Virus record (IMG/VR): IMGVR_UViG_3300045988_160394
Coordinates: 199,173 to 263,172 of that record
DNA: 64,000 nt
Origin: a virus
Reading direction: 5' to 3' (one strand)
The translations under genes and the position numbers were made by a program. The stretch's first letter is position 1; every line of letters begins with the position of its first letter. The notes below the pieces were generated by a model. That model did no database searches, had not been told where the DNA came from, and saw only the letters and a program-made list of their open reading frames with translations. Of the stretch, positions 2,770-58,075 are shown piece by piece.

Positions 2770-5700
2770 TTAAAAATTCCTATTTATATAATTCTCGATA
2801 TCTCTATCTGTTACTGGCTGATCTTTTTTATTTTTTATATTCATGTTTATATTAACAGCTCCACCTACTGTAGCTTCTGCTGCTTTTGCCATGATCTTCT
2901 CCATATACTTTCTACCTTTTTTAGTATCCGCCTTTATATTTATTATATAACCTTGTTGAGTATTCCCTGTCACATAACCGCTATCTTTTTCCATGAATTC
3001 AGGAATGCTCATAATTTGTTGTGATTTATTTTCTTTGCTAACTTCACTAGCTTGTTTATCATTTAAAGGATTACCAGAAGCATAGCCTCCAATCATTAAT
3101 CCAGCTGCTAAACCTAATACTGCTTTACCCATTCCTCCTACTCTTACATTTTTAACTCCATCAGCTAAAGATTCTGTCATACTTTCAGATAAACGTTTTA
3201 TTTCTGCGTCATATTGTCCAGAGTTCATTAGTTTGTTTTTTGCAATATTACTTTCTTGTTGAGCCATGCTTCTTTGAGCTATTTCATCTAAAGCATTTTG
3301 TAAGAAAGCAGGATCTCCATATCCCATTAAAGCTTGGTGTCTAGTTGCAAAAGTACTAGCTTCTTCAGCAGCTGCTCCAATAGAACCATTATACCAAAGT
3401 TTTTCAGTTCTTGCTCCATTTCTTCCAGTAGCTTCTATAGATGCTTTATAAGATAATGCTAGTTTGTCATGAGACATTTCTTTCATTCTTCCTAAGAATT
3501 TTTGTTTCATTGCATTAGCTCCACTTATCATAGGGTCAGCTTGTTTTTCTATATTAGCTCTTTCTTCTTTGCTTAATATAAGATGTCCCATATGTTCATA
3601 TGATTTCTTAAATATATCATCACCATAATCATCTAACCAACTGCCTAATTCATTTAATGATTCTGTAGATGCTACTGTTCCTTTATTATTAAAAATATCA
3701 TTCATTGCTTTTTTGAAGTTTTTAATTCTATTATCATCATATACTCCACCAGCTAATTTTTTAGAAGAGATTACTCCTTGTTCAGCTGTATCTAAAGCAT
3801 TCCAAACATAGTTATTAAAAGCTATTTCTTCAGGAGAAGTATTTCTAAATACATCAGCTAACTTAACAGCATTTAAAGCTTGGTTAACTGAACCTGTTGC
3901 AGCTAGTCCTGTTTTAGCCATCATTTCTTGTGCATACTTATCTACAGACATTCTTTTAATAGCTGTAGCTTCTAATTTACTAAACGTATCATCATCAACA
4001 TTACCTTTTATAACAGTTAAAGCTTCGTCTAGTATTTTGCCAGGCTCTGATGCTTTATTTAAATCTATATCAAATTTTTCATCTTTAGTTATGTCTTTAG
4101 CCAAACTTAATAAATTAGTTGTATCTTCACTTAGCTTATTAAACTCTTTTACAGTAGGCATATGAGCAACAGTTGTAAAAGTCTTTTTACCTAGAATAGA
4201 TTCTCCGCCTGGAACTAAAACCATGTTATCTGGATTAGATAAGTTTTGATTTTTTATAAAATCTTCTTTAATAGTTTTAGCTGCTTTATCTTGCCAATAT
4301 TTATTATCTGTAACAGCAACACTATACATAGCTCTTTCTTGTGCAGCAAAATAATCATATACTTCACCTGACATTAAATTGTTTTCTATTGCATAGTTTC
4401 TACCACCATTTTTATTAGCTAATTCATATAAAGCTCCATCTACTACTTTCCCATCTTTATCTCTATATTCAATTCTGAATGAAGATAAAGAGTCACCGTC
4501 TTGGTCGGCATTAGCTTTTAACATTGTAGATACAGATATCTTAGTTTGATTACCTTGTAATCTTTTATCTAAGAATACTCTAGTTTGGTTTATAGAATTA
4601 TTCCTTGTATTTGGATAACGGTCAGTTATATCAAAAGTACCATATTCTAATAAGAAATCATCCATTTCACTTTCTGTTTTAAATCCAAACTTCTTTAATG
4701 TTTCTGGTTTATAATATCCCATCTTTTCCATCTGTTCTTTTGATACGTATTTATAATCAAAATAAGCTTCACCATTAGCTTCTCATTCAGCTATTGTTTT
4801 ACCCATTATTTTAGATTTTTTAGTAAGATCATCTCCAACAGTTACATCTATACCTGCCTCTTTAGCTGCCTCTACTAACTCTTTAGTCGTAGTATCAGTT
4901 ATTAATCCAGATGATTTAAGTCTATAAGCAGTTGCATTTATTTCTATTTTACTAGCATTATGATGCATACCATTCTTACCAAATATAGAATCTCTTATAC
5001 CTTCTATAGCTTCTGTTCTATTTCCTAAAACTCTTTGGAATAGTCTTTCATATTCATCATCTTGTTTCCCAGATAAAGATTCTAATTCTTCTATACTATG
5101 TTTAAGCTTATTTAATTTTTGATGTCCTACATCTCTAACTTCCTCATCTGCTATTTTCATACCAGTACCAGGGACAGCTAGATATCTATTCTCCTGACCA
5201 AACTTTTCACCTAAATCTACAACTATGTTTCTTTCTACTAAATCATCAACTTTAAAGTTAACATCTTTGATATCAATAACTTCAAAGCCTTTTTGTTTCA
5301 TATCTTCTAAACTTAAGTTATATCCTCTATTAAAGCTATTAGCTTTCATAGCCATTTGTATTTTATATTCTTTTTCTGCACCTTCTACACCTAATTTAAT
5401 CTTATATTTTTTAGCGTATTCATGAATGTCTTTTAAATGAGCGTATCTTTCTGTTTTAACCATATTATCTGTTAGTAGTTCATCAGTGTATGGATTAAAG
5501 AATTGATCATCTTTAAATTGGTCTAATAAACCTTTTAATGATTTCTCTCCTATAATATCTTTAGAAAAAGTAACAGTACCATCAGCATTTTCTGTTAAAT
5601 GATCTTTGAAGGCATGTGAGCTTAACAATGTTTTAGTATCTAGTTCTCCATTATTAATCATTTTTTCAATTTGTTCTGCATGAGCTTCTGTCAAGGATAC

Positions 5701-8700
5701 CCTTTCTAATATAGATAATTCTTGGTCTCCAAACCTCATAGTTTTCATAGTGCCAGCTTTAGAATCTATATCTTCTAACATAGAATCTATTTTCATTATT
5801 TGTTGTTGAATAGCACTTTTCTCACTAGGGTCGGTAGACTTAATCATTTGCTTTTCTAGTCCTATTCTTTCTTTTTTTAATTCTTTTTTTGTTTTTAACA
5901 TTTCAAAGTATTCTGCTGTTACACCTGTTTGTGTTTCTGCATCTCTAACATATTTTACGTTCTCTCTAGTATTAGTACCTATAGCAACTTTAGCATCTTT
6001 TATAAACTTACCATCAACAGTTATATCTTTTTGTATAGTAGCATATGAACCAATAGCTTCTTTTTTGTATTCATATTTACCATCTTTATTCATAATATAA
6101 ATATCTTTAGCTACTAATCTATCATTTTCATCCATATCTTCTAATTCTTCATCTAAAGATTTTATTAATGCTGTAAACTTATCTTTATCTAATGATGTAG
6201 TTTTATTAACAGAATAAAATTTATCATCTATAAAGAATCTACCTTTCTTTTGTTTAACGCCTATAGATTCATAGCTTTTAGTGTCTTTATTTAAATCATA
6301 TTGTTCTATAAATTGAAATGCTTTATTAGAATTTATTTTATCTACAATAAAATCTACAGCATCTTTCTCTGAACCATATTTCTTACCTAAGCTGTTAATA
6401 GCTTTAGATAATAATCCTTCATACATTTGTCCTATATTACCGTGCTTAGCTACGGCATCATTAGCTAATAAATGAGTTTTATTTTTTAGTATCTTATCGA
6501 ATAATAATGCAGAATGCATATTTCTTTCTACAGTTATAGCTTTCTTTAAATCATCTAAAGATTCAAAACCTATTTTCTTAAGTGTACTTTCAGATAAATC
6601 TTTGTTTTTAAAGAATATAGCATCTACAGTTTCATTAGTAATTACTTTGTCTTTTACTATGTCCCAAGAATCTGTTTCTTTAAAAAATTGTTTTATCTTA
6701 TTGTTGTATGATCCAGTAGAAGCATAAACTATATCTGTCATACCTTTTTCTGCACCAGATGTCATTGTTTTAACATACCCCATAGCAGATATATCTTCTA
6801 TAGCATATTGTCCAGTAATACCTTCTTTAGATAGTATCTTCTCTAACTTAGCAGCCATTTCTGCTTGAGTAAGAGGTTGATTGTTTTTATCTAAAAATTT
6901 AGATAAGTTCTTTCTTATTATTTTATTTATATCTTCGTCTCTTAATTTAGTTCCATCACTTTCATAGAAGTTAAAATTGAAAACTCCATAATGCATTTTA
7001 GAAGCAAAGTCTACATTTCTTTCAGCAAAGCCTTTCCATTTAACAGCTGATTCACCTCTGCTTACTAATTTACCAGGAGAAGAATTGAATACTAATTCTC
7101 CATTTTTAAATTCAAAATTACCTCTATAGTTTAGTAATGCTTCTTGTTGTTTCTTTAAATCATTTCCTACTAATTCATTTAATAAAGCACTAACGTCATA
7201 ATTTTTACTAAGCTTCTGAGTACTAGCTGTTCTTAATCCATAAGCAGCTTCATGCACTCTTGAATCTATAATTCTCTCTTGCTCAAAAGTAGATATTGAA
7301 TTTCTTATATAGTTATAAGCTTTTTTCTCTATATCTTTTGTTTTTTCATCTACATTAGAATCTTTCATTACCTTAGCAAAGTTATTATCTATTAAAACTT
7401 GTAAAGCGTTGCTACTAACATATGTTGTATCCATCATTACATCCGTAGTTGTTTTACCTAATCCAAAATAATTTCTCATAGTTCTTTTATCCATAATATC
7501 AGAACTTAAAGTATTACCAGCAGTAATTCCTAGTTTGGATTTCTTTATATCATCTACTCTTAATTGTAGAGCATTACCAGACTGAGTTATAGGTGGTCTT
7601 TGAGAATTATCAAAGATAGAGAATGTAGAGTTTCCTGGTCTATATCCTCTTATTCCTATAAGTGCAGATGTTTTATTTTCTTGACCAGTAAAACCTAATT
7701 CTTTAGTTAAAAAAGCAAATTCATTAGATACGTTTTTGTCTTCTTTAATTTTATCTAATACAAAGTTAATATTCTTAATCAAATCTCTAGTCATTTCTGG
7801 ATTAATATCTTCTAATGCTTTCTCTTCTTTTACATAATATTTAAGATGTTGTTTCATATTATCTAAGAATTCTTTATCAGCAAAATCTATTCCATCTACT
7901 ATATGATTTAATTTTTGATTTTCTCCAAACAAATCTACTAATACATTTTTTATATCTGATATATCTACTCCATAGTTTGAATCTATATCGTTACCTCCAA
8001 AACCATTTATGGTAGATCTACTTCTTAATGAAGCATTATTTAAAGATACTAATCCTACTAATCTATCAAAACCTTCATCTTGGCCTTTCTTCTCTACTAC
8101 TCTTTGTACGTTATTACTTATACTATATCTATTAAGATTATCTAAAGATGAAGCAGAACCTCCTTTTACTTTTCTACCGTCAGCTTTGAAAGTTAACTTA
8201 TTATTTACTTGTATTTTCATAGAACCTAATTCTAAATACATAGTCTCAGAAGGATCATTGTATTTTATTTTAGGCATAATTAATTCCTCTGATCTACCAT
8301 TTTTAAATAATAATAAAGAACCATCTTCTTGTACAGATATAGATGCTCCAAGTTTATCGGCAGTATGAACTACATCTTTTACATAAGTATTTAAATCTTT
8401 ATATAAGTTGTCATACAATATCTGTTTAGTCCTATCACCTTTTTTTATTACATTTCTATTAGGTATATAATACTTTTCAACTAAACTTTTAGCATATCTT
8501 TCAGCAGATTTCTTAGTACCATCTAGAACATTTATATTTGTTCTTTCAACTATATTATTTGCTATTTGTTGAATTATTGGTTTCATATTTTCACTATTTA
8601 AGTATCTAACAAATTCAGTATTACCTTCTAATGCTTTCATAAATGTTCTGCTACCATTTAATATTCCATTTGTAACATTAGACTCTTTAGCTTCTCTCAT

Positions 8701-11610
8701 TCCTTCAATTATAGCTTCTGCTATTTGATACGGATGATAATCTTTATCTTTAAAGCTATTTTTTGAACTAAACTTAAATTGTTTCTTTATATTTTTAAAA
8801 GCCTTTGTATCTTTTAAAACCTCATCTTCTTGTAACATAGCAAATAGTTTTTCAACTGCATCTTTTTCGTAAATTAAATTACCTTTTTTATCTTTACCAT
8901 GAACAGCCTCTGTAGCTGTTTTTATTATTGAGTAAGGGCTATTAACATCATTAAGATTAATCTTTAATATGTTTGCTGTATCTAATGATTTAGCAGTATC
9001 TATATAATTAATTCTTTTTCCTCTAATTATCTTATCGTATTTTATTTCATATAGATTTTTAAAAGTATTAAAATCTGTTTGTAAATTAACGTCGCCTAAT
9101 TTAATCATATCGGCAATATCATCATTACCGCCTCTAAATTTGTTATTAAATATTCATTCAGCAGTCGTTCCTTTTACTTCTTTAACTGTTCTATTAAATA
9201 ATTCTTGTTTAACACTTTCAGCCGTTTTAGGATCTTTAAATACTTCAGTAGCTTCTAAAGCTTCTATTATATTTTTAAACATATTACCATAGCTATTAAC
9301 CATTTCTAATCCTGTAGCATTATTATCAACAGTTGATTGTAATAATCTCATTACATCATTTTTACTATGTCCTAAAGTAGCTATAATCATTTCTTGTGAT
9401 TTTATTAATTGAGCATTACTAAGTTCCATAGCCATTTGCCCTTTAGAAACTCTTTCTGCCATGATAAGAGATATATCTCTACCTGTAATATCCATGTTCA
9501 ATTCTTTAGATAAGTTTTCTTGTAGATCAAGTACATTCTTTATTTTCTTATAAGAATTATCTCTAAACATAGAGTTGTCTGCTCTAGAAATTAATTTCTT
9601 TTCATTATCAGCTAATACAACTCTATTAAATAACTCAGTATCAGAAAGACCTTCTTCATTAACTGGTTTAAAGACAACTTTATTAGTTTCTTTATTTTTG
9701 TTAATTTCTCTAATATCAAATCTGTCTTTCATTCCTTTTTTGATTTGAATTCCATTATCTGTTCTTTCTGCAACAATATCAAAGTTACCGCTTAAAAAAG
9801 CATTCATCTCTTTTTCTGATTTAAATATTAGATTTTGTGTTAAATCTCCTAGTCTTGTTGTAGTTGCGTAATCATCATGTACTGCCATGTTTAATTGAAC
9901 TTGATAAAGTTTTTTACCAGAATATTCAGGGGCTATATCTCCCATCATTGTTCTCAATTCATCTGTTAGTTCTATTTCTCTTATATTAGATATATCGTAA
10001 AAAGAACCTTTATTAATTCCGAAACCTGCACTAAAGTTTTCATGCATAGCTCCACCAGCTGCTTGTAAGGCTTCATCTCCTTTACCTAGTAAATGATTAT
10101 CAGCTGTATATATAGTTCCTGTACTTTTACTTTGTGCAAAGTTGAAATAATTTCTTCCACCATAACTAGTACTAACTCCTTTTTTAGCTTGAAGTATTTG
10201 CTTACCAGGAGTTAATACTGTATCTTCTGTTTTTATATTTTCTATTAAATTGTTTATGTGCTCTATAACAGATACATTCCCTGGAAGACTTTCTGATTTC
10301 TTTGTAAAAAACCATGATAATCCAGTAACGTCATCTTCAGCCATATGAGGTTTTAGTCCTTCACTATTAAACAAACCTCCATAATGTTTTTGTAATAAGT
10401 ATTCCTGTCCTCTTACTTTATCTATATCTCCTATTTTTGCATTTCCATATACAGAAGATAATGAATTATAATCTGTTGCTAATTTAACTCCACCTAAAAC
10501 ATCTAGATCTGCATAAGATGGAATATTAAAGCCAACTCTTTTACTTTCGAAATAATTATTTAATTTTCCATTATAATCGTTATTCCATTTTAATAACATA
10601 TTATTTAAAATAAGTTCGTCAAACGCATTACTGTTAAAACCAGAAATCATTGCTTTTTTATTATTAACAGCTGTTTGAGCTTTACTTATAGTTTGTGTAA
10701 CTTTTAATATATCTGCTTTTATTCCATCAATTTCTCCTGTTTGATGATAAACATTATTTAAAACTTCTGCTCCTTTTTCTATAACTGAAATATCTTTATA
10801 GTTATTTCTATCTACATTAGGGAAATTAGTTGCTTTAAAATATTTTTCTCCTTTAACTTTTTCATATTTAAAATCTTTATCTGCATATTTAGCTAAACGC
10901 ATAGCTGTTACTTTTAATTCTTCGTCACTATCTATAGTTCCATTTTCTATAGCCTTTCTTATTTTATTTACAGTTTCTTCTTTTTCTTTATCTGACATTC
11001 CTATAAGTACACTTACATTATCTATTACCTTACCTGTTTTAACGTCATATTCTTGCATAGCAAATTCTGTAATAGCATTAGGTCTTCATATATTATTTTT
11101 ATCTTTTCCTCCAAGAGTTTCTAAGTCCCAAACAAAAAGACTTCCTCCATTACTTTTTAGAGAGTTAAAATATTTATAAGATTCTTTTCATGAATTGATA
11201 GATTCATTAGCAGAACCTCTTTGTTTACTATGAACAACATTACCTAAATTCTTTATTGTTAATCCTAACATATTCTCTGATGAATTAGATTTATCACCTA
11301 TTATTTCAAAGAAGTTTAATCCTTTATCTCCGATGTTGGTTAATTGTCTAAGCTTTTCTGTTATTACATCTATATCGCCAGTAGCAACTTTTTTATTTCA
11401 TGTATACTTATGCTTATTAATAAACATATGGTCAGAATCTTTTATTAAATACTTACCACTATGTAATAATTCTATTGTTCTATTTATTTCTTCTATAGCC
11501 GCATTTTCTTTATTTATATCTACTTTTTTTGAAGCTTCAATGTTACGTTGAGCTATACGGATTCTATCCATAGTAGTTCCAACTATATTAGTTGATTTAT
11601 TATTAGCCAT
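2770..11610 (-). CDS. Giant 2946-aa protein: N-terminal DEDDh (DnaQ-like) exonuclease motifs plus RNA polymerase beta-like and beta-prime-like (NADxDGD) motifs; candidate virion-packaged RNA polymerase
   Basis: Track ORFs 11398..11610, 9154..11058, 4783..9108 and 2770..4731 lie in one frame. They are separated only by TGA at 11398, 11188, 11086, 9154 and 4783; the gaps were scanned and hold no TAA/TAG. ATG 11608-11610 lies behind GAGGTGG; TAA at 2770. Motifs: LFVWDLETLGG, NSNAFDELIL, KPHMAEDDV (Exo I-III, ca 10320-11130); AKHGNIGQMYE (ca 6430-6447); DRYPNTRNNSI...KANADQDGDS (NADQDGD = 4492-4512). Confidence 0.75.
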
Positions 11611-39227: not shown

Positions 39228-42200
39228 CTATCTACTAAATCCACCTCTTCTACCAAAACCTCCAGAACGAGAACCTCAACCACTACTCCTTCCACCAAAT
39301 CTATTAGACATAGCTTTAGCTGATCTATAATCCATATCAACCTCTACTCATGTTTGTCTATCTCCAGGTAAATCATCTCAATCATTATTAGCATAAAAAT
39401 CAGATATTCTAGAGTCTGTATTAATTCTATTAACAGAAGTAGCATACATTCCTGCTCCACCCATTTGTTTATTAGATATATGGAAGTCTGAAGTAGTTTT
39501 TATATCTTCAACGACACCTGTTAGTTCTTTAAATTCCATAACCATTGCTAAGTGAGCTAAACCTAAAGCGTCGACAAAGTGTTCGTTTTCTGATGTATAT
39601 TGAGGTATACCTGCTTTAGACATTTGAACAACTTCGTAATCTGTTAATTGTTTAGCTAATACATCGTCGTAAGGAGATAATATAATTCTATCTCTTTCAA
39701 AAGCTATTTGTAGTTGGTTAACCATAAATGGTTTAAAAGGTTTGCTATCTAATTCTTTAGTTATAGGGTCCATTATTTGAAGCTTAGTAGAAAAGTTACA
39801 CTTCTTAACTTTAGCTTTTAATCCTGTTTGTGGATTTTCATCACCTATGATATGCAAGCGTTCTATTTGATATTCTCCTGCTCCTGCATCACAATATATT
39901 CAGCTAGGATTATATAGAGCATTTAATTCAACTATTAAATTAACAGCTGCATCATAAGAATATTCACTTCTAGGAACTTCTACTCTTTTTAATACTTTAA
40001 ATTTATTAAAGTTTACATCATAATCTAATATTAAAATAGAAGATGAAGCTCCATATTTATCTCAGTCAACCCCCATAGTTCTAAAAACATTTCTAGGAGG
40101 AGGATTTGTTCTGTCATACAATTCCATGAAGGGGTATAATCCTGTTTCTTGTAGTTTTTCTTTTTGGAAATAATCTAATTCATTATAAGCATAATTATAA
40201 AACTTTTGAGCAGCATCTAATTTATTCTTATCAAATACCCCTGTTTCTTGTGTACCGAACTCAGCTAAAACTTCATGCACATAACCTTCAGCTGTTAATT
40301 GAGCTTTAAGTTCTGCTTCCATTTGAGCATTCCAGTTAGGGTTATGTGTAGATGGATGATAATGTTGAGAATATCCCATACTCTTATCTGTACACATTTG
40401 ATAGAACTTACTACGTTTACCTAAAGGTGTAGATGAAACTGTTATACCTATTTCAGGTCTCTCTATAGCAACAGCAGCAACAACTTCGAAACAATATTCA
40501 CTCATGAAGTCAACCTCATCTATGAATATCCAGTCTGCTTTTTGTCCTCTTATAGAAGCTGCATCATCACCAGTAGTAAATCCTAGTATCATAGATCCGT
40601 TAGCAAATTCTATTTTTGCAGGGTTCTTTGTAGAAGCAACTACTGTTTGTTTTAATAATGGAGATTCTGCTATTAACTCATTTAATCTTGTAAACATGTT
40701 TCTGATTTGGTTTTCATATGGAGCAGCCATAAGTATTCTAAAGTTCTTATTACTACTAGCCATATATAACATCTCAACTACCATTGTTTCAGTATTATGA
40801 GTTATAAAGTCTTCTGCTACAAAGTTCATTGTTAATGGTATAGATAAATTATATGTTTGCATCTCTCCTAAGGATTGTATTGAAACTATTTCATCAAAGA
40901 TAAATTCACCATCTGCAAAAGCTTTTAAATCTTCATTATCTAATACATTAGCGAATTCTTTTAATCTACTCCTTTGGATATCATAATTCATTCTTAATCT
41001 AACATTAGGATTTGTTTTACACAAATCAGCTTTAGATAATCCTTGTTTAATTCTATCTTCTTCTACGAATTCTAATATCTCTTTTGGTAGATAAGTATCG
41101 TATTTATTATTTATTAAAGCTAATTCATAAGCTTCTTTCATAACTTTCTCTTTAGAGAAAATACCAATCTCTTTATAGAACTTAATAACGTTTATAGAAT
41201 CTGTTATTAAAAGCTGATAACAAACTTTAATTGTTCCATTATATTTATTTTTCTTAGTTACAACATAGCTATTAATTCCAAACTTTAATAATAAATGTTG
41301 TATATCAGAAATAAGTTCTCTTGATACAGAACTATATCCTATTTGTTGTTTATTATTTCTAGCATATGCTCAACCATCTGTAGCGTATAATCTAGATAAG
41401 AATAAAGCTGTATCGTTTTTACTTAATTTAAATATATCTTTAGGAACGAATTTAGTATGAGATGTTTTCCCAAACAATTCGTGCTTTTCTAAAATCTCTT
41501 TAATATTGTTAGGATAGATTCTATTATTCCTGTTATGTTTTTTTACAATATTATAATCTATGTTTCTATTGCTTTTATATTGTACTAATTCACAGTCAAA
41601 ATAGTTAACTGCTCTTTCTAATTCACTTCTTATCTCTTCAGAAGCTGTACAGAATCTAATAGCCTTTGTAGAGCAATTACCGTCACCAATCATGTAAGCT
41701 AATAGTTTTATTTCATTTTCGCTCATGTAGTGATTACCGAAATATCCTAAGTTACCAGCTAATGCTACTCTATCTCCTGGTTTTAAGAAATCTATTGCTT
41801 GTCATCCTTTAGCAGTAAATAATGGGTGATTTCCCGTAGCATCTATGTGCCTACCTGACTTTGTAGTAACTCTAAAGACTTCTTTAATTCCGTTATCTGT
41901 TATTTCATTAGTAAAGTGAGGACTCATCTTATAATCATCTGTCATAGTTACAAAATGAGCTCGACCTTGTTTATATAACTCTTCTGCTGTTACTCTTTCT
42001 CCTGTTTTAGGATTAAATACTCTAGTATGACCAGGGATACATTTCCCTATACGTCTTCCACATCTATATACTTTTCTAACACTTTTGTCTCTTAACATTT
42101 CAACTTGATATCATCTAGCTGTTCAAGGCACGTATTCTTTTTTTCTAGGATCGAAAGTTTTTAAAAAAGCTTGAGACCATAATATAGGGTCATCCATAAT

Positions 42201-51744: not shown

Positions 51745-52908
51745 ATGAAAAAGATAGCAATAGAAATAATGGAAAGACAATTACAAGAAAGAAAGGAAGC
51801 TGCAACTAGTATTATAAACAACACAATAGAAGCATTAAAAGTATTAGGACAAGAAGAGTTATTATCTTCAAATGTAGTAGAAGTAGAGAAAGAAAAAATA
51901 GTAGAAGTTAAAGTTCCAGTTGAAGTAGATAAGAGTGAATTAGAAGCTTTAAAAGTAAAAAATGCAGAAGCTGAAGCTATTATCAAATCATTAAAGAAAG
52001 AATTAGCTAATGAAAAGAGAAAGGCTACTAACAGTAACAAGAGAGTAGATAAATTAAAAGAACAAGTTTCTGAATTAAAATCAGATGTTAAAGGTTTATC
52101 TAAGATAGCTGATAAAAATAAAGAGCTTGTAGAAGAGAATAAATACTTAAAAGATATGATTACAAAATTAGAAGCTAAATTAAACATGAAAACAAATGCT
52201 GAATTTAAAGTACCAGTGAAGAATAAAGAAACAGTTAAGAAGCAAACTCCTGTTCAAATTAATAGCGATTTGAAAATTTATTCAAACAATAACATAAGTA
52301 TATTAGCTCAATATAAAAATGTTATATTTGAAGCTTCTAAAAGAATGGATGCAATAACCATATATGATCCAAGTATGTACGGTATGAAAGAAGAAATAAA
52401 AGCTGCACTAGAATCAGCTAAATTATTTACTCAAGCTAGAGATGTAAAAGACCATGACAGAATAGAAACTGAAATAGGTTCATGTCATGCTATATCTAAG
52501 ACTAAGTATATGGGATTCGTTATGGATAACGGTAAAGCTATTTGTTATGTATACGAACCAAGTAAATATGATACAGCTAAAGCTATTTTAATAAACAAAA
52601 GATTAAATAACACTAGTATTAAATATGAACCAGCTACAGAATCTCAACAAGCTCTTATTAACAATTTAGTAGCTCAACATGTAGCTGCTAATAATAAGAG
52701 AATGGAGCAACTTTCTCAAGATGCATATACTGGTTTAGGGTTAGATTTCTTAGATGGAAATAATAATCAACAAACAGTTAGTAATAGTGCTCCTAGTGTT
52801 AGCTTAAACTTTACAAAACAACCTGAACAAACTGCACCTTCAACTAATAGTCCTGAAGAGGATATGATGGCTGAATTTGCTAGAATGTTAGATGGTTTAA
52901 ATGCATAA
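51745..52908 (+). CDS. Hypothetical protein (387 aa) with N-terminal coiled coil
   Basis: Intact ORF with RBS GAGGT. Heptad-rich residues 1-150. TAA stop. Confidence 0.65.
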   Translation: MKKIAIEIMERQLQERKEAATSIINNTIEALKVLGQEELLSSNVVEVEKEKIVEVKVPVEVDKSELEALKVKNAEAEAIIKSLKKELANEKRKATNSNKRVDKLKEQVSELKSDVKGLSKIADKNKELVEENKYLKDMITKLEAKLNMKTNAEFKVPVKNKETVKKQTPVQINSDLKIYSNNNISILAQYKNVIFEASKRMDAITIYDPSMYGMKEEIKAALESAKLFTQARDVKDHDRIETEIGSCHAISKTKYMGFVMDNGKAICYVYEPSKYDTAKAILINKRLNNTSIKYEPATESQQALINNLVAQHVAANNKRMEQLSQDAYTGLGLDFLDGNNNQQTVSNSAPSVSLNFTKQPEQTAPSTNSPEEDMMAEFARMLDGLNA

Positions 52909-53205
52909 GCGTTACCTTTCCCCTGCGGGGGTAGTTTCTCACGTTAAGCCCTACGGGTTTGAGTTAAAAGTAACTACCTTCGGTTATCGAGAAATTAGAA
53001 ATATTTCTTTCTATGACAAGTTAGCTCCGCTTCGCTACGCTAACTGTTAGAAAGAAGAAAACTCGCTTCGCTCGTAAGAAATAGAGCGTTTTGTGAGTAT
53101 TCGTGAGAAGAGTGCTTCTCTTTGGTGGGTAAAACCACCAACGGTTGTACTTAGCTCTACGAGTGCCATAAGAAATCATAAAAGAAATAGTACTTCTTTT
53201 TGATT
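52909..53205 (+). ncRNA. Unclassified GC-rich structured RNA island (about 300 nt, at least 6 hairpins, several UNCG tetraloops)
   Basis: Noncoding in all frames and far more GC-rich than its flanks. Hairpins and helices read directly:
- CCCC-UGCG-GGGG;
- GGUAGUU...AACUACC enclosing CUCA[..AAGCCC-UAC-GGGUUU..]UGAG;
- C-UUCG-G;
- a 16-bp bipartite helix UUCUUUCUA..AGUUAGC-(13 nt)-GCUAACU..UAGAAAGAA (53005-53056);
- CGCUC-(10 nt)-GAGCG;
- GAGAAG-AGUG-CUUCUC;
- GGUGG-GUAAAA-CCACC.
The stable loops are UNCG only on the plus strand. Confidence 0.6.
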
Positions 53206-53247
53206 ATAAACTAAATCAATTATATTAAATTAAAGGAGGTATTCACA

Positions 53248-53730
53248 ATGAATACAAATACAACTATCAAGAAAAGAATATTTACTATGGCTATGAGAGG
53301 CAACACTGCTATCTTAACAGACAGTAGTAATCCTCAATCTACTATCTCATTTAAAGGAGAAAACTTATCTATTATTGGCTTACAACTATTAAATAAGCTA
53401 TTAGAAAGTATGCCAACTCAAAGATTAAACTATAAAGTAGCAGTATTATTACCACATACTGTAGTTATTCCTACATTCGAAAATACTAGAAATGCATGGA
53501 TTGCTAATGGTAAAACTAAGACTGGTAATGATATAGAACCTGCTAAGCTTCATGAAGTTATTAGACTTAATGAGCTATTAAGAGTTAAAGGTCATAACGT
53601 AGAAATCTTTGACCAAAGCAAACTAACTAGTGTAATGTATAAATCATTTACTAGAAAGACATGGGAGCTTATGGATAAGATAGTACCAAAAGCAGAGGCA
53701 GAAGATTGCAATGCATTTATGGTTCAATAA
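53248..53730 (+). CDS. Hypothetical early protein (160 aa), distant paralog of 55406..56248
   Basis: Intact ORF with RBS AAAGGAGG. Shared block ANGKTKTGNDIEPAKLHEVIRLNELL vs RTGKTKSGTQLTGQEMQAFKDVYKMI. Confidence 0.6.
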   Translation: MNTNTTIKKRIFTMAMRGNTAILTDSSNPQSTISFKGENLSIIGLQLLNKLLESMPTQRLNYKVAVLLPHTVVIPTFENTRNAWIANGKTKTGNDIEPAKLHEVIRLNELLRVKGHNVEIFDQSKLTSVMYKSFTRKTWELMDKIVPKAEAEDCNAFMVQ

Positions 53731-53760
53731 TATTATTATGAGTCAGTGAAATATCTGGCT

Positions 53761-53821
53761 CTTTCTGTCGTGGAAGATACAGTCCACCTGATGATGGCTA
53801 TTAGGTAGCCGAAACAGAAAT
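53761..53821 (+). ncRNA. Hammerhead ribozyme, type III (open stem III)
   Basis: Layout: UUUCUGU-C^ (stem III 5' strand, GUC triplet, cleavage after C53769); GUGGA-AGAUACAG-UCCAC (stem I); CUGAUGA; extra U; GGCUA-UUAGG-UAGCC (stem II); GAAA; CAGAAA (stem III 3' strand). All invariant core nucleotides are present. Confidence 0.85.
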
Positions 53822-53846
53822 ATTATTACATTATGAGGTGATTGAT

Positions 53847-54269
53847 ATGAAAATATTTATACCAGCTTACGAAGGAATATCTGGATTATATACTGTAGAA
53901 GAAATAAGAGAAGGAGAAAACTTCTATTATGATAATGGATCTATGGTAAACATATATGACAACTATTTTATTGTTATCAATAACAATGGAATAATCGAGT
54001 ACGAAAGTGATGAAGGATTATACAGCATATTTGTTATGTGTTCTGATGAAGAAATAAAATTCTTAGAACAATTTACAGATATAGGATCTAAAAAGATTTT
54101 AGAGAGAATGTTAGAGCGTAGAATGTATTACGCTAATCTTAAAAAATCTGTAGATGGTAAAACATGTCCTGTATGTGGAAAGAAACTATCCGAATCTAAT
54201 ATAGATGCTGGAATAAGAAATCTATTCTGCAATAATTGTAAGCATAGTGAAACTATTTGCATAGATTAG
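53847..54269 (+). CDS. Hypothetical early protein (140 aa) with C-terminal zinc ribbon
   Basis: ATG lies after GAGGTGATTGAT. Motif CPVCGKKL...FCNNCKH. The G of the TAG stop is the first nt of the next ribozyme. Confidence 0.6.
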   Translation: MKIFIPAYEGISGLYTVEEIREGENFYYDNGSMVNIYDNYFIVINNNGIIEYESDEGLYSIFVMCSDEEIKFLEQFTDIGSKKILERMLERRMYYANLKKSVDGKTCPVCGKKLSESNIDAGIRNLFCNNCKHSETICID

Positions 54270-54329
54270 TCGAAACGGTAGAAATACCGTCGTACAGGGA
54301 TGGCTTCCTGTGCCTGATGATGACAAGCC
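54269..54329 (+). ncRNA. Hammerhead ribozyme, type II (open stem II) with loop I pseudoknot
   Basis: Layout: GUC-GAAA; ACGGUA-GAAA-UACCGU (stem III with GNRA loop); C^ (cleavage after C54291); GUACAGG-GAUGGCUU-CCUGUGC (stem I); CUGAUGA; extra U; GAC (pairs with the 5' GUC); AAGCC, which is complementary to GGCUU in loop I. Confidence 0.8.
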
Positions 54330-54363
54330 AAACTATATTTGAATTTAAAGGAGATTGATTGAT

Positions 54364-54921
54364 ATGAAAACAAAATTCACATTAAAAGGATTAGAAATAG
54401 GAAACATTAAGATAGGAGATATCGTTGTTGAAGGCGAATACTTTGTTAAAGAGGCATGGGGTATGAAAAACCTAATTAAAGGAACAGTTGAAGATTTGTT
54501 ACACAACATGCCAAAATATCTTGATCAAGTATCTACAATAAACAACAAGTACGAAGAACTATCTAGAAAAGAATTCTTAAAGAAAGTAGACCATATTCGT
54601 ACTAGAATTAATGGAGCTAAAACTATAGAAGAATTAGATAGTATCTGTAAATGCTATTACGAAATATGTCCATTTAGTATGCATAGTGAAATAGATGCTC
54701 TTCATAACCAAAGATATCATGAGTTAAGAAGATATTCTGATGATGAAATTAAAGAGCTAAAAAAAGAAATAGAGTCTTCAGGTACAATTACAGGTATTGC
54801 AAGACTTATCAATATTGTTAAGAGTGAAGTTATTCCTGATAAATATAGAGACGAATTGTTAGCTATGGTTGACAGGAAACACTCAGAAATATTATTTAAA
54901 TATACAACAAGTATGAATTAG
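54364..54921 (+). CDS. Hypothetical early protein (185 aa)
   Basis: ATG lies after AAAGGAGATTGATTGAT. The TAG stop overlaps the start of the next ribozyme. Confidence 0.6.
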   Translation: MKTKFTLKGLEIGNIKIGDIVVEGEYFVKEAWGMKNLIKGTVEDLLHNMPKYLDQVSTINNKYEELSRKEFLKKVDHIRTRINGAKTIEELDSICKCYYEICPFSMHSEIDALHNQRYHELRRYSDDEIKELKKEIESSGTITGIARLINIVKSEVIPDKYRDELLAMVDRKHSEILFKYTTSMN

Positions 54922-54986
54922 TCGAAACGGTATAGAAATATGCCGTCGTGTAGAGATAGCCTACTACACCTGATGATGACAGGCTA
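54921..54986 (+). ncRNA. Hammerhead ribozyme, type II with loop I pseudoknot (second copy)
   Basis: Layout: GUC-GAAA; ACGGUAUA-GAAA-UAUGCCGU (stem III, 2 bp longer than copy 1); C^ (cleavage after C54947); GUGUAG-AGAUAGCCUA-CUACAC (stem I); CUGAUGA; extra U; GAC; AGGCUA, which is complementary to UAGCCU in loop I. Stems I and III and the pseudoknot all covary relative to 54269..54329. Confidence 0.8.
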
Positions 54987-55019
54987 AATAATATTTTAAT
55001 TTAAAGGAGATTGATTAAT

Positions 55020-55280
55020 ATGACAAATTGGAAAATTACAAAAATAACAACAGGAGTAGCAACTGAAGAAGAGGTAAAAGGATGGGAAGAAATAGAAAAT
55101 GATGACATCTGTCCTGTATGTGGATCAAAAATGATTGATGATGAAGAAGAACAATTATTACAACATACTGAATGTCCTATATGTGGTTACTTTGAAAACA
55201 TCTACGGTAATGCTATAGATTTCTATGGTAAAGAATGTTTCGAAGAAAAGAAAAAAGAAATAGGTCTTTTAAATGAATAA
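55020..55280 (+). CDS. Hypothetical early zinc-ribbon protein (86 aa)
   Basis: ATG lies after AAAGGAGATTGATTAAT. Motif CPVCGSKM...ECPICGY. TAA stop. Confidence 0.6.
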   Translation: MTNWKITKITTGVATEEEVKGWEEIENDDICPVCGSKMIDDEEEQLLQHTECPICGYFENIYGNAIDFYGKECFEEKKKEIGLLNE

Positions 55281-55297
55281 TTAGGGAGTTCTCTCCC

Positions 55298-55356
55298 TTC
55301 TTCTAATGTAGCCAATGACGGTCACAAGCCCGTATAAGAAATACAGAGTGGAAGAA
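55298..55356 (+). ncRNA. Twister ribozyme (P1-type arrangement)
   Basis: Sequence: UUCUUC U^AA UGUA GCCAAUG ACGG UCACAAGC CCGU AUAAGAAA UACA GA GUG GAAGAA. Pairings: P1 UUCUUC/GAAGAA, P2 UGUA/UACA, P4 ACGG/CCGU, pseudoknot CAC/GUG. Conserved blocks UAA, GCCAAUG, UC.CAAGC and AUAA match the rice twister as I remember it (..CUAACACUGCCAAUGCCGGUCCCAAGCCCGGAUAAAAGUGGAGGGGG..), with compensatory changes in every helix. Predicted cleavage between U55304 and A55305. Preceded by hairpin AGGGAG-UUCU-CUCCCU. Confidence 0.85.
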
Positions 55357-55405
55357 AATAATATTATGGGTTAAGCTTCCCTAAAAAGCATAGGAGGAAA
55401 CAATT

Positions 55406-57720: not shown

Positions 57721-58075
57721 AGTATATATAAGGGAGGGGCGTAAGCCCCGACCGATTTAAAAAGTATTTATATCTACGAGCTAATATATATATTGCGAGC
57801 GTCAGCGAGCAACCATATAACATTATATATTATTACTCAGAAATAGAAATATCTTTTAGAAATATAACTATTTTTGCTTATATTTTTATCTACTTATTGT
57901 GATATGAAGTTTATTACAACTAAACTTTTACGAAAAAAGTGTTTAACTTTTACGTACTTTTGTTTGGTATTACTAAACTTTTACCCTTTTTCTGCTTTTT
58001 TAGTTACCCTCGTTTTAAATAATATTATTGAAATTTATTATTTTGTCGAGGAGGAACTACCCCCGCCCGTATGTT
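57721..58075 (+). other. Noncoding region: two GC-rich structured ends flanking an AT-rich core with direct repeats
   Basis: Left end: GGGGC-GUAA-GCCCC (GNRA hairpin) and GCGAGC-GUCA-GCGAGC. Right end: UAGUUACCCUCG-(34 nt)-CGAGGAGGAACUA hairpin, then CCCCCGCCCG. Track ORF 57874..58077 has no RBS and is low-complexity. Confidence 0.5.
57919..57985 (+). repeat. Three direct repeats (A/G)(C/T)T(A/T)AACTTTTAC(G/C) in the AT-rich noncoding core
   Basis: ACTAAACTTTTACG (57919-57932), GTTTAACTTTTACG (57941-57954) and ACTAAACTTTTACC (57972-57985), spaced 22 and 31 nt start to start. Confidence 0.6.

What the first reader, a model, noticed from the sequence alone, without database searches (positions are those of the whole stretch)
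52909..53205. About 300 nt of GC-rich, UNCG-tetraloop-rich structured RNA of unknown class
In an otherwise very AT-rich genome, this noncoding stretch is packed with stable helices capped by UGCG, UACG-type and UUCG loops. It includes a 16-bp bipartite helix (53005-53056) and nested helices (GGUAGUU/AACUACC around CUCA/UGAG around AAGCCC/GGGUUU).

The special loops exist only on the plus (transcribed) strand. It lies immediately upstream of the ribozyme array.

I could not fit it to hammerhead, twister, pistol, tRNA or group I/II intron cores. Candidate explanations are:
- another self-cleaving ribozyme class (hatchet, twister-sister and HDV-like were not excluded);
- a large structured ncRNA;
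- clustered hairpin promoters or terminators for a phage RNAP. N4-type virion RNAPs recognise small DNA hairpins.
Basis: seen in the sequence. Interest (0 to 1): 0.7.

Follow-up and report, generated by a model that had tools for sequence, protein, structure and literature searches.

The report
Conserved structured RNA in jumbo phages
The flagged stretch is a real folded non-coding RNA of about 265 nt that matches no described RNA family, is kept at one genomic spot in a group of uncultivated giant gut phages, and has a function that is inferred, not shown.

Summary
Window 52909-53205 is non-coding, GC-enriched (0.41 against 0.29) and holds 8 CUNCG motifs on the + strand and none on the - strand. 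It folds far better than shuffles (z = -6.3).

The same element sits between the same two genes in 8 diverged lineages of a ~263 kb jumbo myophage clade. This clade is distantly related by its capsid protein to Moorella phage MTATph1 and Bacillus phage 0305phi8-36. Hairpin stems stay paired while their sequences change. The + strand is the better folder in all 8 lineages. A 15-nt block, CUCUACGAGUGCCAU, is invariant. A bipartite A/U-rich motif (AAGAAAUA-N6-8-UAUGA) recurs 3-4 times per element.

No Rfam family, tRNA, conserved ORF or + strand sigma-70-type promoter fits. N4-type hairpin promoters are not supported. Known ribozyme classes were not detected, but Rfam sensitivity was poor here.

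My best reading (0.45) is a new, clade-specific, cis-acting structured RNA. A terminator or 3' stabiliser hairpin for the upstream gene is followed by a long multi-hairpin leader of the ribozyme-punctuated operon, and the invariant block is a recognition site.

A free-standing RNA/RNP, a new ribozyme and tandem phage promoters remain open.

The parts
52920..52941 (+). P0: the CCCC-UGCG-GGGG hairpin right after the stop codon, plus the U-rich tail UAGUUUCUCA. It is terminator-like and may act as a 3' stabiliser of the 387-aa gene's mRNA.
   Evidence: It is listed as terminator-like. The CCCC/GGGG stem is invariant and the loop varies (UGC/UAC/UUC) in all 8 lineages, always followed by (G)UAUUUYC.
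52944..52962 (+). P2: the UUAAGCCC-UAC-GGGUUUGA hairpin.
   Evidence: CCC-UNC-GGG is invariant in all 8 lineages. The lower stem changes U:A to C:G and A:U to G:C in L006 (P2low). It holds two G:U pairs on the + strand only.
52970..52987 (+). P3: the GUAAC...GUUAU hairpin with the apical ACC-UUC-GGU, preceded by the conserved AAAG-NN-AC.
   Evidence: A hairpin at this position has a different stem in each lineage (ACC/GGU, CUC/GAG, GGAAC/GUUCC, GGCC/GGCC, GACC/GGUC, AGAA/UUCU). Each of the second and third stem pairs takes 4 different standard base-pair types across lineages.
52997..53017 (+). M1: first copy of the bipartite motif (U)AGAAAUA-N-UAUGA.
   Evidence: Its U-rich 3' half is the 5' strand of the D2 basal helix.
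53004..53057 (+). D2/P4: a long hairpin. Its parts are UUUCUUUCU/AGAAAGAAG, GAC/GUU and (A)GUUAGC/GCUAAC(U).
   Evidence: 79.4% of cells are paired against 66.1% in shuffles (0/500). Eleven pairs change on both sides (2/500). The covariation score is 0.356, against 0.147 or less when the partner is slid.
53025..53039 (+). Apical loop of P4: three tandem CUNCG pentamers (CUCCG CUUCG CUACG).
   Evidence: The sequence shows this directly. It is identical in W and L023 although the enclosing stems differ.
53069..53088 (+). P5: the CGCUC-GUAAGAAAUA-GAGCG hairpin, with the A-rich half of M2 in its loop.
   Evidence: It appears in the MFE folds of W, L009, L005 and L006. It is weakly conserved in the more distant lineages.
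53076..53099 (+). M2: second copy of the motif, AAGAAAUAGAGCGUUUUGUGAGUA.
53089..53173 (+). D4: the 3' domain. It is closed by helix H_A (UUUUGUG 53089-53095 pairing with CAUAAGA 53167-53173). It encloses P6 (53105-53120), P7 (53122-53141) and the invariant block.
   Evidence: H_A is 92% paired, and 3 of its pairs change on both sides (table). The P7 stem differs in every lineage (GGUGG/CCACC, CCCC/GGGG, UAUCC/GGAUA, AGAUUGUA/UACAAUUU). Model R1 finds exactly one copy per phage.
53155..53169 (+). Invariant block CUCUACGAGUGCCAU: the mini-hairpin CUC-UAC-GAG plus UGCCAU.
   Evidence: It is identical in all 8 lineages, including those with 32-40% identity in the flanking proteins. It occurs once in the window. 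L006 and L007 hold a second, near-identical copy. Exact matches found in public collections were scattered coding sequences unrelated to this element; the pattern used on metagenome contigs needed the P0 hairpin as well and returned only near-identical copies of this phage plus two unrelated GC-rich contigs.
53182..53207 (+). M-last: AAGAAAUAGUACUUCUUUUUGAUUAU. It forms a weak A/U hairpin and may be a phage-specific promoter or a 5'-UTR element.
   Evidence: It is present in all lineages 39-46 nt upstream of the first start codon of the operon, except in L006, where a GC-rich insert puts it about 75 nt upstream. In L025 the first gene of the operon is a different gene.
53208..53250 (+). AU-rich spacer, the Shine-Dalgarno sequence AAAGGAGG (53233-53240) and the ATG (53248) of the 160-aa gene.

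Best explanation
This is a new, clade-specific, + strand structured RNA of about 265 nt (52909-53178) plus a short A/U-rich tail. I read it as acting in cis, at the boundary between the 387-aa gene and the operon whose later spacers carry hammerhead and twister ribozymes.

Shown:
- It is non-coding.
- It is kept at one syntenic site in 8 lineages.
- It folds into a chain of stem-loops (P0, P2, P3, D2/P4, P5, D4 with P6 and P7). Their bases are A/U-rich and their tips are GC-rich with UNC(G) caps.
- Stems covary.
- One 15-nt block is invariant.
- A 22-nt bipartite motif recurs 3-4 times.

Inferred:
- P0 plus its U-rich tail terminates the upstream mRNA or stabilises its 3' end.
- The remaining domains form a long leader that travels on the operon's mRNA. 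There is no room for a conventional promoter in the 41 nt between the last motif copy and the ATG.
- This leader protects the 5' end or controls expression.
- The invariant block, exposed at the three-way junction of D4, is the recognition site for a phage factor, either a protein or the phage RNA polymerase.
- The motif halves serve as the A-rich and U-rich strands of the basal helices. The last copy possibly also serves as a phage-specific promoter.
For: Synteny and spacer length:
- The order 616-aa gene, 387-aa gene, a 311-407 nt spacer, then the operon is the same in L005, L006, L007, L009, L010, L011, L014, L022, L023 and L025.

Conservation:
- The element is more conserved than the flanking genes in close relatives: 99.3% against 90.5 and 95.1%; 96.7% against 89%; 85.3% against 73-74%.

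Structure:
- D2 is 79.4% paired against 66.1% in shuffles, with 11 pairs changed on both sides and covariation 0.356 against 0.147 or less when slid.
- D4 is 89.7% paired against 83.6% (0/500), with H_A at 92%.
- P3, P4 and P7 have different stems in each lineage.
- The + strand is more stable than the - strand in all 8 lineages, by 5-25 kcal/mol, and has more G:U pairs.

Other points:
- No ORF is shared between lineages.
- P0 scores as terminator-like.
- There is one copy per phage.
- In L025 the element precedes a different first gene, so it goes with the head of the operon and not with the 160-aa gene.
- The scan lists no + strand sigma-70-type promoter inside the element.
Against: - No transcript ends are known, so leader, free RNA and read-through are not distinguished.
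- Generic stabiliser hairpins would not need near-perfect sequence conservation over 265 nt or an invariant 15-mer.
- The partner of the block is inconsistent. It pairs with an upstream GUAUUCGU in W, L005 and L009, with a downstream UAUUCGUA in L007, and with nothing clear in L006 and L025.
- A/U-rich basal helices could partly reflect base composition.
- Only 8 lineages are available, 5 of them close to each other, so covariation statistics are limited.
Confidence: 0.45

Rival explanations
1. It is a free-standing, trans-acting structured RNA. It may be the RNA part of an RNP with a co-conserved neighbour, for example the 160-aa protein. It would be cut or terminated out of the transcript and act on a phage or host target.
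For: - Sequence constraint is as strong as on the very conserved 160-aa gene and stronger than on the upstream genes.
- The invariant 15-nt block looks like a binding or seed site.
- P0 lies upstream and a weak A/U hairpin with a U run lies at 53182-53207, and these could bound a discrete RNA.
- The 160-aa protein is 74-99% identical across the homologues found. Its model, of modest quality, resembles the RNase H fold (Foldseek E = 3.5e-4, TM 0.37-0.49).
Against: - No complement of the block occurs in the 64-kb window. Exact-match scans of two public collections turned up only scattered, unrelated sequences.
- The protein model is of low to medium confidence (pLDDT 64) and strand beta-1 has no acidic catalytic residue.
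- L006 and L025 have another gene between the RNA and the 160-aa gene.
- There is no room for a separate promoter for the next gene after the RNA.
Confidence: 0.2
2. The recurrent 22-nt motif is a DNA-level, phage-specific promoter, present as 3-4 tandem copies. The GC-rich hairpins between copies are terminators, insulators or leader hairpins of short transcripts.
For: - The motif has two conserved halves at a fixed spacing with a variable centre, which is typical of a protein-binding site.
- Three copies lie within 210 nt, while the whole window has 12 matches against 6.3 expected.
- The last copy sits 39-46 nt before the start codon in all lineages but L006.
- Similar sequences precede the 280-aa gene and lie at 57850.
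- The phage has an ORF with the polymerase loop signature NADQDGD.
- The distant relative 0305phi8-36 has a putative own RNA polymerase and 14 copies of a 21-bp phage-specific promoter candidate (PMC2147016).
Against: - The U-rich halves of M1 and M2 are strands of helices that covary, so they are present and paired in RNA.
- In L007 a start site a few nt after M2 would fall inside hairpin P7.
- The motif is not enriched over the window as a whole.
- It also occurs inside hammerhead stem III loops and in A-tract/U-tract terminators.
- The one 50-kb stretch of 0305phi8-36 that I examined showed no similar motif.
Confidence: 0.2
3. The element, or its D4 domain, is a self-cleaving ribozyme of a new or unrecognised class. 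It would do for the first gene what hammerheads and twisters do for the later genes.
For: - It lies at the head of an operon in which later spacers carry hammerhead or twister ribozymes just before the ribosome-binding site, in the window and in all relatives.
- D4 is a junction of helices with an invariant strand, as in small ribozymes.
- Pistol, hatchet and twister-sister were found by searching such ribozyme neighbourhoods (my own knowledge of Weinberg et al. 2015; reviewed in PMC6154101).
- Rfam models are insensitive here, since two clear hammerheads were missed.
Against: - There is no hit to any ribozyme model at E <= 10 in W, L023 or L007.
- The region has no CUGANGA core.
- I found no consistent pseudoknot or conserved partner for the block.
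- The block lies 80-95 nt from the start codon, not 20-45 nt as for the known ribozymes here.
- Most orphan RNAs found next to ribozymes have not cleaved when tested (own knowledge).
Confidence: 0.1
4. The hairpins act as DNA. The complements of C-UNC-G are C-GNA-G mini-hairpins on the - (template) strand. These would be N4-type hairpin promoters or a priming or origin signal.
For: - GCUUCGC on the + strand is GCGAAGC on the - strand. That is the extraordinarily stable DNA mini-hairpin found at phage origins and in N4 early promoters (PMC13037366, PMC4496689).
- It occurs twice in W and two to three times in L007.
Against: - G:U pairs, and hence the better fold, are on the + strand in all 8 lineages.
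- N4 requires a central purine in the loop (GGA or GAA). The invariant hairpin would give GTA and P0 would give GCA.
- The distance from hairpin to the next conserved motif varies from 0 to 23 nt.
- The long helices D2 and H_A, with wobble pairs, are not explained.
- The phage is a myovirus with a tail sheath, not N4-like.
- The cumulative GC-skew minimum is near 46 kb, not 53 kb.
Confidence: 0.05

Closest known systems
C(UUCG)G-type extra-stable hairpins in phage T4 intercistronic regions (Tuerk et al. 1988, my own knowledge)
   Same: These are GC-stemmed hairpins capped by UNCG loops that sit between phage genes on the transcribed strand. They act as terminators and decay barriers. P0, P2 and P3 have exactly the C(UNCG)G form.
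   Different: Here the hairpins belong to a 265-nt unit that is conserved as a whole. That unit has long covarying helices, an invariant 15-mer and a repeated 22-nt motif. Five of the eight CUNCG motifs cannot form the canonical tetraloop.
Orphan structured RNAs found next to self-cleaving ribozymes in phage-like DNA (the ribozyme-neighbourhood searches of Weinberg et al.; see PMC5737381, PMC6154101)
   Same: Both are conserved structured intergenic RNAs of unknown function, in phage DNA, close to hammerhead and twister ribozymes.
   Different: No covariance model in Rfam 15 matches. The element is restricted to one phage clade and one syntenic position.
Large phage-associated non-coding RNAs GOLLD and ROOL (Rfam families)
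   Same: Both are multi-domain, phage-borne RNAs whose sequence is more conserved than that of neighbouring genes.
   Different: This element is much smaller (about 265 nt against roughly 600-800 nt) and gives no model hit. I did not examine whether it is associated with tRNA genes; none lies in the window. It is probably part of an mRNA leader.
Phage N4 virion RNA polymerase hairpin promoters (PMC4496689, PMC13037366)
   Same: Both are short GC hairpins with 3-nt loops, clustered at the head of a set of small genes. The - strand sequence GCGAAGC is of the same mini-hairpin type.
   Different: The loop centre is not a purine in the invariant hairpin. The spacing is not fixed. Wobble pairs favour the + strand. 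The phage is not N4-like.
The 21-bp phage-specific promoter candidates of Bacillus phage 0305phi8-36 (PMC2147016)
   Same: Both are motifs of about 21-22 bp, repeated in non-coding spacers of a jumbo myophage of the same broad lineage. That phage has a putative RNA polymerase of its own.
   Different: The published logo is not available as text. The 50-kb stretch I examined held no similar sequence. Here the motif halves are also RNA helix strands.
Cis-acting leader RNAs that modify transcription or stability: HK022 put, lambda nut, and 5' stabilisers of Bacillus phage SP82 mRNA (own knowledge; put and N are mentioned in PMC4496689)
   Same: Both are structured RNAs at the start of a phage operon that contains internal terminator-like hairpins. 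CGCUCGUA at 53069-53076 resembles boxA CGCUCUUA (7 of 8).
   Different: There is no boxB-like loop. The element is several times larger. No factor is known and no test was possible.

Membership tests
Hammerhead ribozyme | Conserved core CUGANGA ... GAAA at a three-helix junction, with an NUH cleavage site | tested here: not met
   No CUGANGA occurs in 52909-53205 (sequence). No Hammerhead model hit at E <= 10. The nearest string, CUCUACGAG, lacks the essential C3 and G5.
Twister ribozyme | A match to the twister covariance models (P1-P2-P4 with two pseudoknots and conserved AAGC...GGG nucleotides) | tested here: not met
   The twister-P1 model hits 55300-55354 (49.1 bits) but nothing in the element. 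AAGCCC at 52946 lies in a stem, not in a loop.
Pistol, hatchet, twister-sister and HDV-like ribozymes | A match to the family covariance model (consensus helices plus the highly conserved nucleotides) | tested here: inconclusive
   There are no hits at E <= 10 in W, L023 or L007 and no hit recurs across homologues. The same scans missed two evident hammerheads, so sensitivity is limited. A manual check of the consensus was not possible from the texts held.
tRNA / tmRNA | Cloverleaf or tmRNA structure detectable by ARAGORN | tested here: not met
   ARAGORN found 0 genes in the whole window.
Any Rfam 15 family (riboswitches, leaders, sRNAs, GOLLD, ROOL, HEARO, Drum and so on) | A score at or near the family's gathering threshold | tested here: not met
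   The best + strand hits in the element score 14.7-17.2 bits against thresholds of 38-80. The best overall is MAT2A_C on the - strand (21.9 bits against 47).
Intrinsic (factor-independent) terminator | A GC-rich hairpin followed within 0-2 nt by a U-rich run | tested here: met
   Met for P0 only: 52918-52931 plus TAGTTTCTCA is listed, and the hairpin plus (G)UAUUUYC is kept in all 8 lineages. The other hairpins are followed by A-rich sequence and do not qualify.
N4-type hairpin promoter | A template-strand hairpin with a 5-7 bp stem and a 3-nt loop with a central purine (-11 A/G), -10G and -8G, and a start at a fixed distance (PMC4496689) | tested here: not met
   The template-strand loops would be GCA, GTA, GAA, GAA and GTA. 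The invariant hairpin has a central T and a 3-bp stem. The distance to the next conserved motif is 0-23 nt. The + strand is favoured in folding.
N4-type hairpin promoter | Presence of a giant virion RNA polymerase of the N4 type in the genome | not testable with these tools
   Only 64 kb of about 263 kb is in hand. The largest ORF is 1441 aa and has no family hit.
Sigma-70-type promoter | -35 and -10 hexamers 16-18 nt apart on the + strand upstream of the gene | tested here: not met
   One search lists no + strand site inside 52909-53247. The only site there is on the - strand (53248-53219).
Protein-coding gene / small ORF | An ORF conserved in frame and strand among relatives | tested here: not met
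   The longest open frames differ in strand, frame and sequence between lineages. One relative's annotation has a 49-aa call (L010), and it is not conserved.
Conserved structured RNA (generic criterion) | Helices kept through compensatory changes, and a fold better than shuffled sequence | tested here: met
   Searches give the covariation. Searches give z from -3.9 to -7.3 on the + strand in 8 lineages.

The most novel reading that the evidence does not exclude
The element is the founding member of a new class of functional phage RNA. It would be an about 265-nt multi-domain RNA whose invariant junction strand, CUCUACGAGUGCCAU, is an active or recognition site. It would work either as a new self-processing ribozyme at the head of a ribozyme-punctuated operon, or as the RNA subunit or decoy of a phage factor, for example the co-conserved 160-aa protein or the phage's own RNA polymerase.
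Probability: 0.2. Interest if true: 0.8.

Novelty: new variant of a known kind. Interest (0 to 1): 0.55.

Why it matters
Giant phages of gut Firmicutes-like hosts are almost unstudied, and nearly every protein in this window lacks a family.

This locus shows a tightly conserved RNA module at the entry to an operon that is cut up by hammerhead and twister ribozymes. If the module is a leader that controls or stabilises that operon, it would help explain why phages punctuate operons with ribozymes. If its motif or its invariant block is a signal for the phage's own polymerase, it gives a direct way into the transcription programme of this clade. If it cleaves itself or forms an RNP, it is a new RNA class.

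It is short enough to test directly by in vitro transcription.

Tried and rejected
Identifying relatives and known families:
- Rfam at gathering and E-value thresholds, on the window, on the element alone and on homologues, found no family.
- ARAGORN found nothing.
- blastn of the locus against 50,697 phage records gave no match.
- IMG/VR scans with either flanking protein, with the 616-aa alignment and with the invariant block gave no relatives. The two block hits were coding sequences of GC-rich phages.
- The JGI metagenome pattern scan gave only near-identical copies plus two unrelated GC-rich contigs.
- GTDB genomes gave no relative by protein. The 52 exact hits to the 16-mer were scattered coding sequences. 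So there is no conserved host target and no attB-like site.

Ideas rejected:
- attP-like site (core plus arm repeats): there is no integrase and no host match, and the idea does not explain the covarying hairpins.
- Replication origin: the GC-skew minimum is near 46 kb.
- TnpB/IscB-type guide RNA behind the 387-aa gene: the protein has no such domains and its model is a coiled coil plus a small beta domain of low confidence.
- Small ORFs and start-stop mini-ORFs in the motif: not conserved.
- Sigma-70 promoter with the block as spacer: the hexamers are less conserved than the spacer.
- Similarity of the block to T7-type promoters: 9 of 15 by eye, one copy per 64 kb, not pursued.
- Long-range pairing of the block with GUAUUCGU: present only in the W clade.
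- The motif TTCCTATATA as a general promoter: not enriched.
- A search of a 0305phi8-36 stretch for a similar motif: none found.
- The RNase H-like fold of the 160-aa protein: weak, with no catalytic acids in the first strand.
Full report
WHAT IS THERE

The finding lies in a 339-nt spacer. On one side is the stop codon of a 387-aa ORF (51745-52908, +). On the other is the start of a 160-aa ORF (53248-53730, +). The window is part of a contig of about 263 kb from a metagenome (ENA ERZ1756024 NODE_19). It carries a myophage structural module: tail sheath, portal, major head protein and terminase. By tblastn, its capsid protein is closest to Moorella phage MTATph1 (52%) and to the 0305phi8-36 group of Bacillus jumbo phages (37-41%).

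The region has 0.41 GC against 0.29 for the window. It holds 8 CUNCG motifs on the + strand and none on the - strand. The window average is 0.24 per 297 nt, and 2000 composition-matched shuffles never exceeded 5. As RNA, the + strand folds to -102.7 kcal/mol (z = -6.3) and the - strand to -84.2 kcal/mol (z = -3.9). Three qualifications apply:
- Only three of the loops are canonical C(UNCG)G.
- The CUCA/UGAG helix has no comparative support.
- A gene separates the element from the first hammerhead.

RELATIVES

Nothing similar exists in 50,697 deposited phage genomes or in IMG/VR. GTDB genomes gave no relative. The JGI metagenome scan gave only near-identical copies and two chance matches.

Homologues of the two upstream proteins in the large protein collection led to contigs from other samples. 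In all of them the gene order is the same: a 616-aa gene, a 387-aa gene, a 311-407 nt spacer, then the operon. Together with the window this gives eight diverged lineages: W, L009, L005, L006, L007, L022, L023 and L025. Flanking-protein identity to the window falls as low as 32-40%.

Among close relatives the element is more conserved than the genes upstream of it: 99.3% against 90.5 and 95.1%; 96.7% against 89%; 85.3% against 73-74%. It is about as conserved as the very conserved 160-aa gene. The 15-mer CUCUACGAGUGCCAU (53155-53169) is identical in all eight lineages.

STRUCTURE

The element is a chain of stem-loops with A/U-rich bases and GC-rich tips capped by UNC(G) loops.

- P0 (52920-52931). 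CCCC-UNCG-GGGG lies directly after the stop codon and is followed by a U-rich run. It is scored as terminator-like and is present in all lineages.
- P2 (52944-52962). It has an invariant CCC-UNC-GGG tip. Its lower stem changes U:A to C:G and A:U to G:C in L006.
- P3 (52970-52987). It is a hairpin at the same place in each lineage, with a different stem each time.
- D2/P4 (53004-53057). On an 8-sequence alignment, 79.4% of cells pair against 66.1% in shuffles (0/500). Eleven pairs change on both sides (2/500). The covariation score is 0.356, against 0.147 or less when partners are slid. Its apical loop is three tandem CUNCG pentamers. These are identical in W and L023 although the stems differ.
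- D4 (53089-53173). It is closed by helix H_A (UUUUGUG/CAUAAGA). H_A keeps pairing through U:A to C:G in L006, a two-pair insertion on both strands in L023, and U:G to C:G in L025. D4 encloses P7, whose stem differs in every lineage, and the invariant block.

A covariance model of D4 finds exactly one copy per phage, always at the syntenic place, and nothing else in 136 kb.

In all eight lineages the + strand folds 5-25 kcal/mol better than the - strand and uses more G:U pairs. There is no shared ORF. The element is therefore a + strand RNA structure under selection.

THE REPEATED MOTIF

Each element holds 3-4 copies of AAGAAAUA-N6-8-U(A/G)UGA(U/A)UA. In W they are at 52997, 53076 and 53182. 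Three copies within 210 nt is far from chance, yet the motif is not enriched across the window (12 matches against 6.3 expected).

Its two halves are conserved at a fixed spacing around a variable centre, which looks like a protein or polymerase site. The last copy lies 39-46 nt before the first start codon of the operon. That holds in every lineage but L006, where a GC-rich insert moves it to about 75 nt, and it includes L025, where the first gene is a different one.

Against this, the U-rich halves of M1 and M2 are the 5' strands of the covarying helices D2 and H_A. In L007 a start site just after M2 would fall inside P7. Motif-like strings also occur in hammerhead stem III loops and in A-tract/U-tract terminators of relatives. 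I conclude that the motif is present in the RNA and has a structural role. A promoter role for the last copy is possible but unproven.

The phage may have its own polymerase. ORF 2770-4731 carries NADQDGD, the metal-binding loop signature of two-barrel RNA polymerases, but it has no family or PDB hit. Separately, 0305phi8-36 was reported to have a putative RNA polymerase and 14 copies of a 21-bp promoter candidate (PMC2147016).

WHAT IT IS NOT

- No Rfam 15 family matches at gathering or at E <= 10. This holds for the window, the element alone and two distant homologues. No weak hit recurs between homologues.
- There is no tRNA or tmRNA.
- The region has no hammerhead core.
- As a caution, the same scans missed two hammerheads that are plain by eye (53757-53822 and 54918-54990). 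So pistol, hatchet, twister-sister and HDV-like ribozymes are not detected, but they are not excluded.
- N4-type hairpin promoters fail three defining features (PMC4496689, PMC13037366). These are the central purine of the loop, a fixed distance to the start, and a hairpin on the template strand; here wobble pairs favour the other strand.
- An attP-like site, a replication origin, a transposon guide RNA and small ORFs were considered and rejected, as listed under Tried and rejected.

MOST LIKELY MECHANISM

I favour a cis-acting structured RNA at an operon boundary (confidence 0.45). The steps are:
- P0 ends the upstream mRNA or protects its 3' end. The hairpin plus U run is shown; the function is inferred.
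- The other domains travel as a long leader on the mRNA of the operon. This is inferred from the lack of any + strand sigma-70-type site in the spacer and from the 41 nt left between the last motif copy and the ATG.
- The leader protects the 5' end or sets expression of the first gene. This gene is the only one in the series without a known ribozyme in front of it.
- The invariant block, held at the D4 junction, is a recognition site for a phage factor.

The degree of sequence conservation is higher than generic stabiliser hairpins would need. That is why the rivals keep real weight: a free RNA or RNP (0.2), tandem phage promoters (0.2), a new ribozyme (0.1) and DNA-level hairpins (0.05).

NOVELTY AND SCORE

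The element is a new RNA family by every test available here. It belongs to a known kind, conserved structured intergenic RNAs of phages, some of which lie next to ribozymes. Its distribution is narrow (one uncultivated clade, one locus) and its function is not established. I score interest at 0.55. The most novel reading not excluded is a new catalytic or RNP-forming RNA class. I give that a probability of about 0.2, and its interest would be about 0.8 if true.

Noticed in passing
window 2770-4731 (-), with neighbours 4783-9108 (-) and 9154-11058 (-): The 653-aa ORF carries NADQDGD, the catalytic metal-binding loop signature of two-barrel (beta'-like) RNA polymerases. It and the adjacent 1441-aa and 634-aa ORFs have no PHROG hit; the two larger ones also had no Pfam and no PDB sequence hit. 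[quoted passage not shown]
   Followed up: partly
window 53757-53822 and 54918-54990 (+): Two hammerhead ribozymes are plain by eye. One is type III: UCUGUC|GUGGA..UCCAC-CUGAUGA-GGCUA..UAGCC-GAAA-CAGA. The other is a type II copy, 80% identical to 54268-54333. Rfam cmscan missed both, even on a 1.35-kb stretch. The Hammerhead_II hit at 54268-54333 (40.4 bits, threshold 37) was also absent from the 64-kb gathering run.
   Followed up: partly
window 53731-55405, and the same region of L005, L006, L009, L011, L022, L023 and L025: The small genes between the 160-aa and 280-aa genes differ between relatives: 140+185+86 aa here, 186 in L005, 195+116 in L009 and 86 in L011. Each is preceded by a hammerhead or twister right before its ribosome-binding site. 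This looks like turnover of ribozyme-bounded gene cassettes.
   Followed up: no
window 57721-57880 (+): This is a second conserved GC-rich intergenic region. It holds a GGGGC-GUAA-GCCCC hairpin, AUCUACGAGCUA (which shares CUACGAG with the invariant block), the direct repeat GCGAGC-GUCA-GCGAGC, and then a motif-like AGAAAUAUAACUAUUUUUGCUUAUA. It is nearly identical in L011, L014 and L005. Model R1 does not hit it.
   Followed up: partly
window 40062-41141 (-): The terminase large-subunit ORF has both Terminase_6N and Intein_splicing hits, so an intein may be present in the terminase.
   Followed up: no
L006 5495-5545 (+): One relative has an extra 118-aa gene inserted after the element. In front of that gene is a GC-rich insert, CAGGGUAUGCGGAUGUACAUAUGCCAACGAGCAAUCCCGCCCACAUGG. 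It has no Rfam hit and no excess folding energy (z = 0.25). A pseudoknot (GGG/CCC, GCGG/CCGC) is possible.
   Followed up: partly
window 53248-53730 (+): The 160-aa protein is far more conserved than its neighbours: 74-99% identity among the homologues found, with the lowest coming from the L022-type lineage. It has no family or PDB sequence hit. Its AlphaFold model (pLDDT 64, pTM 0.60) most resembles RNase HI by Foldseek (E = 3.5e-4, TM 0.37-0.49), but the first strand has no acidic residue.
   Followed up: partly
window 57900-57990 (+): The motif (C)TAAACTTTTAC occurs three times within about 70 nt, inside or just after a small ORF that follows the second structured region.
   Followed up: no
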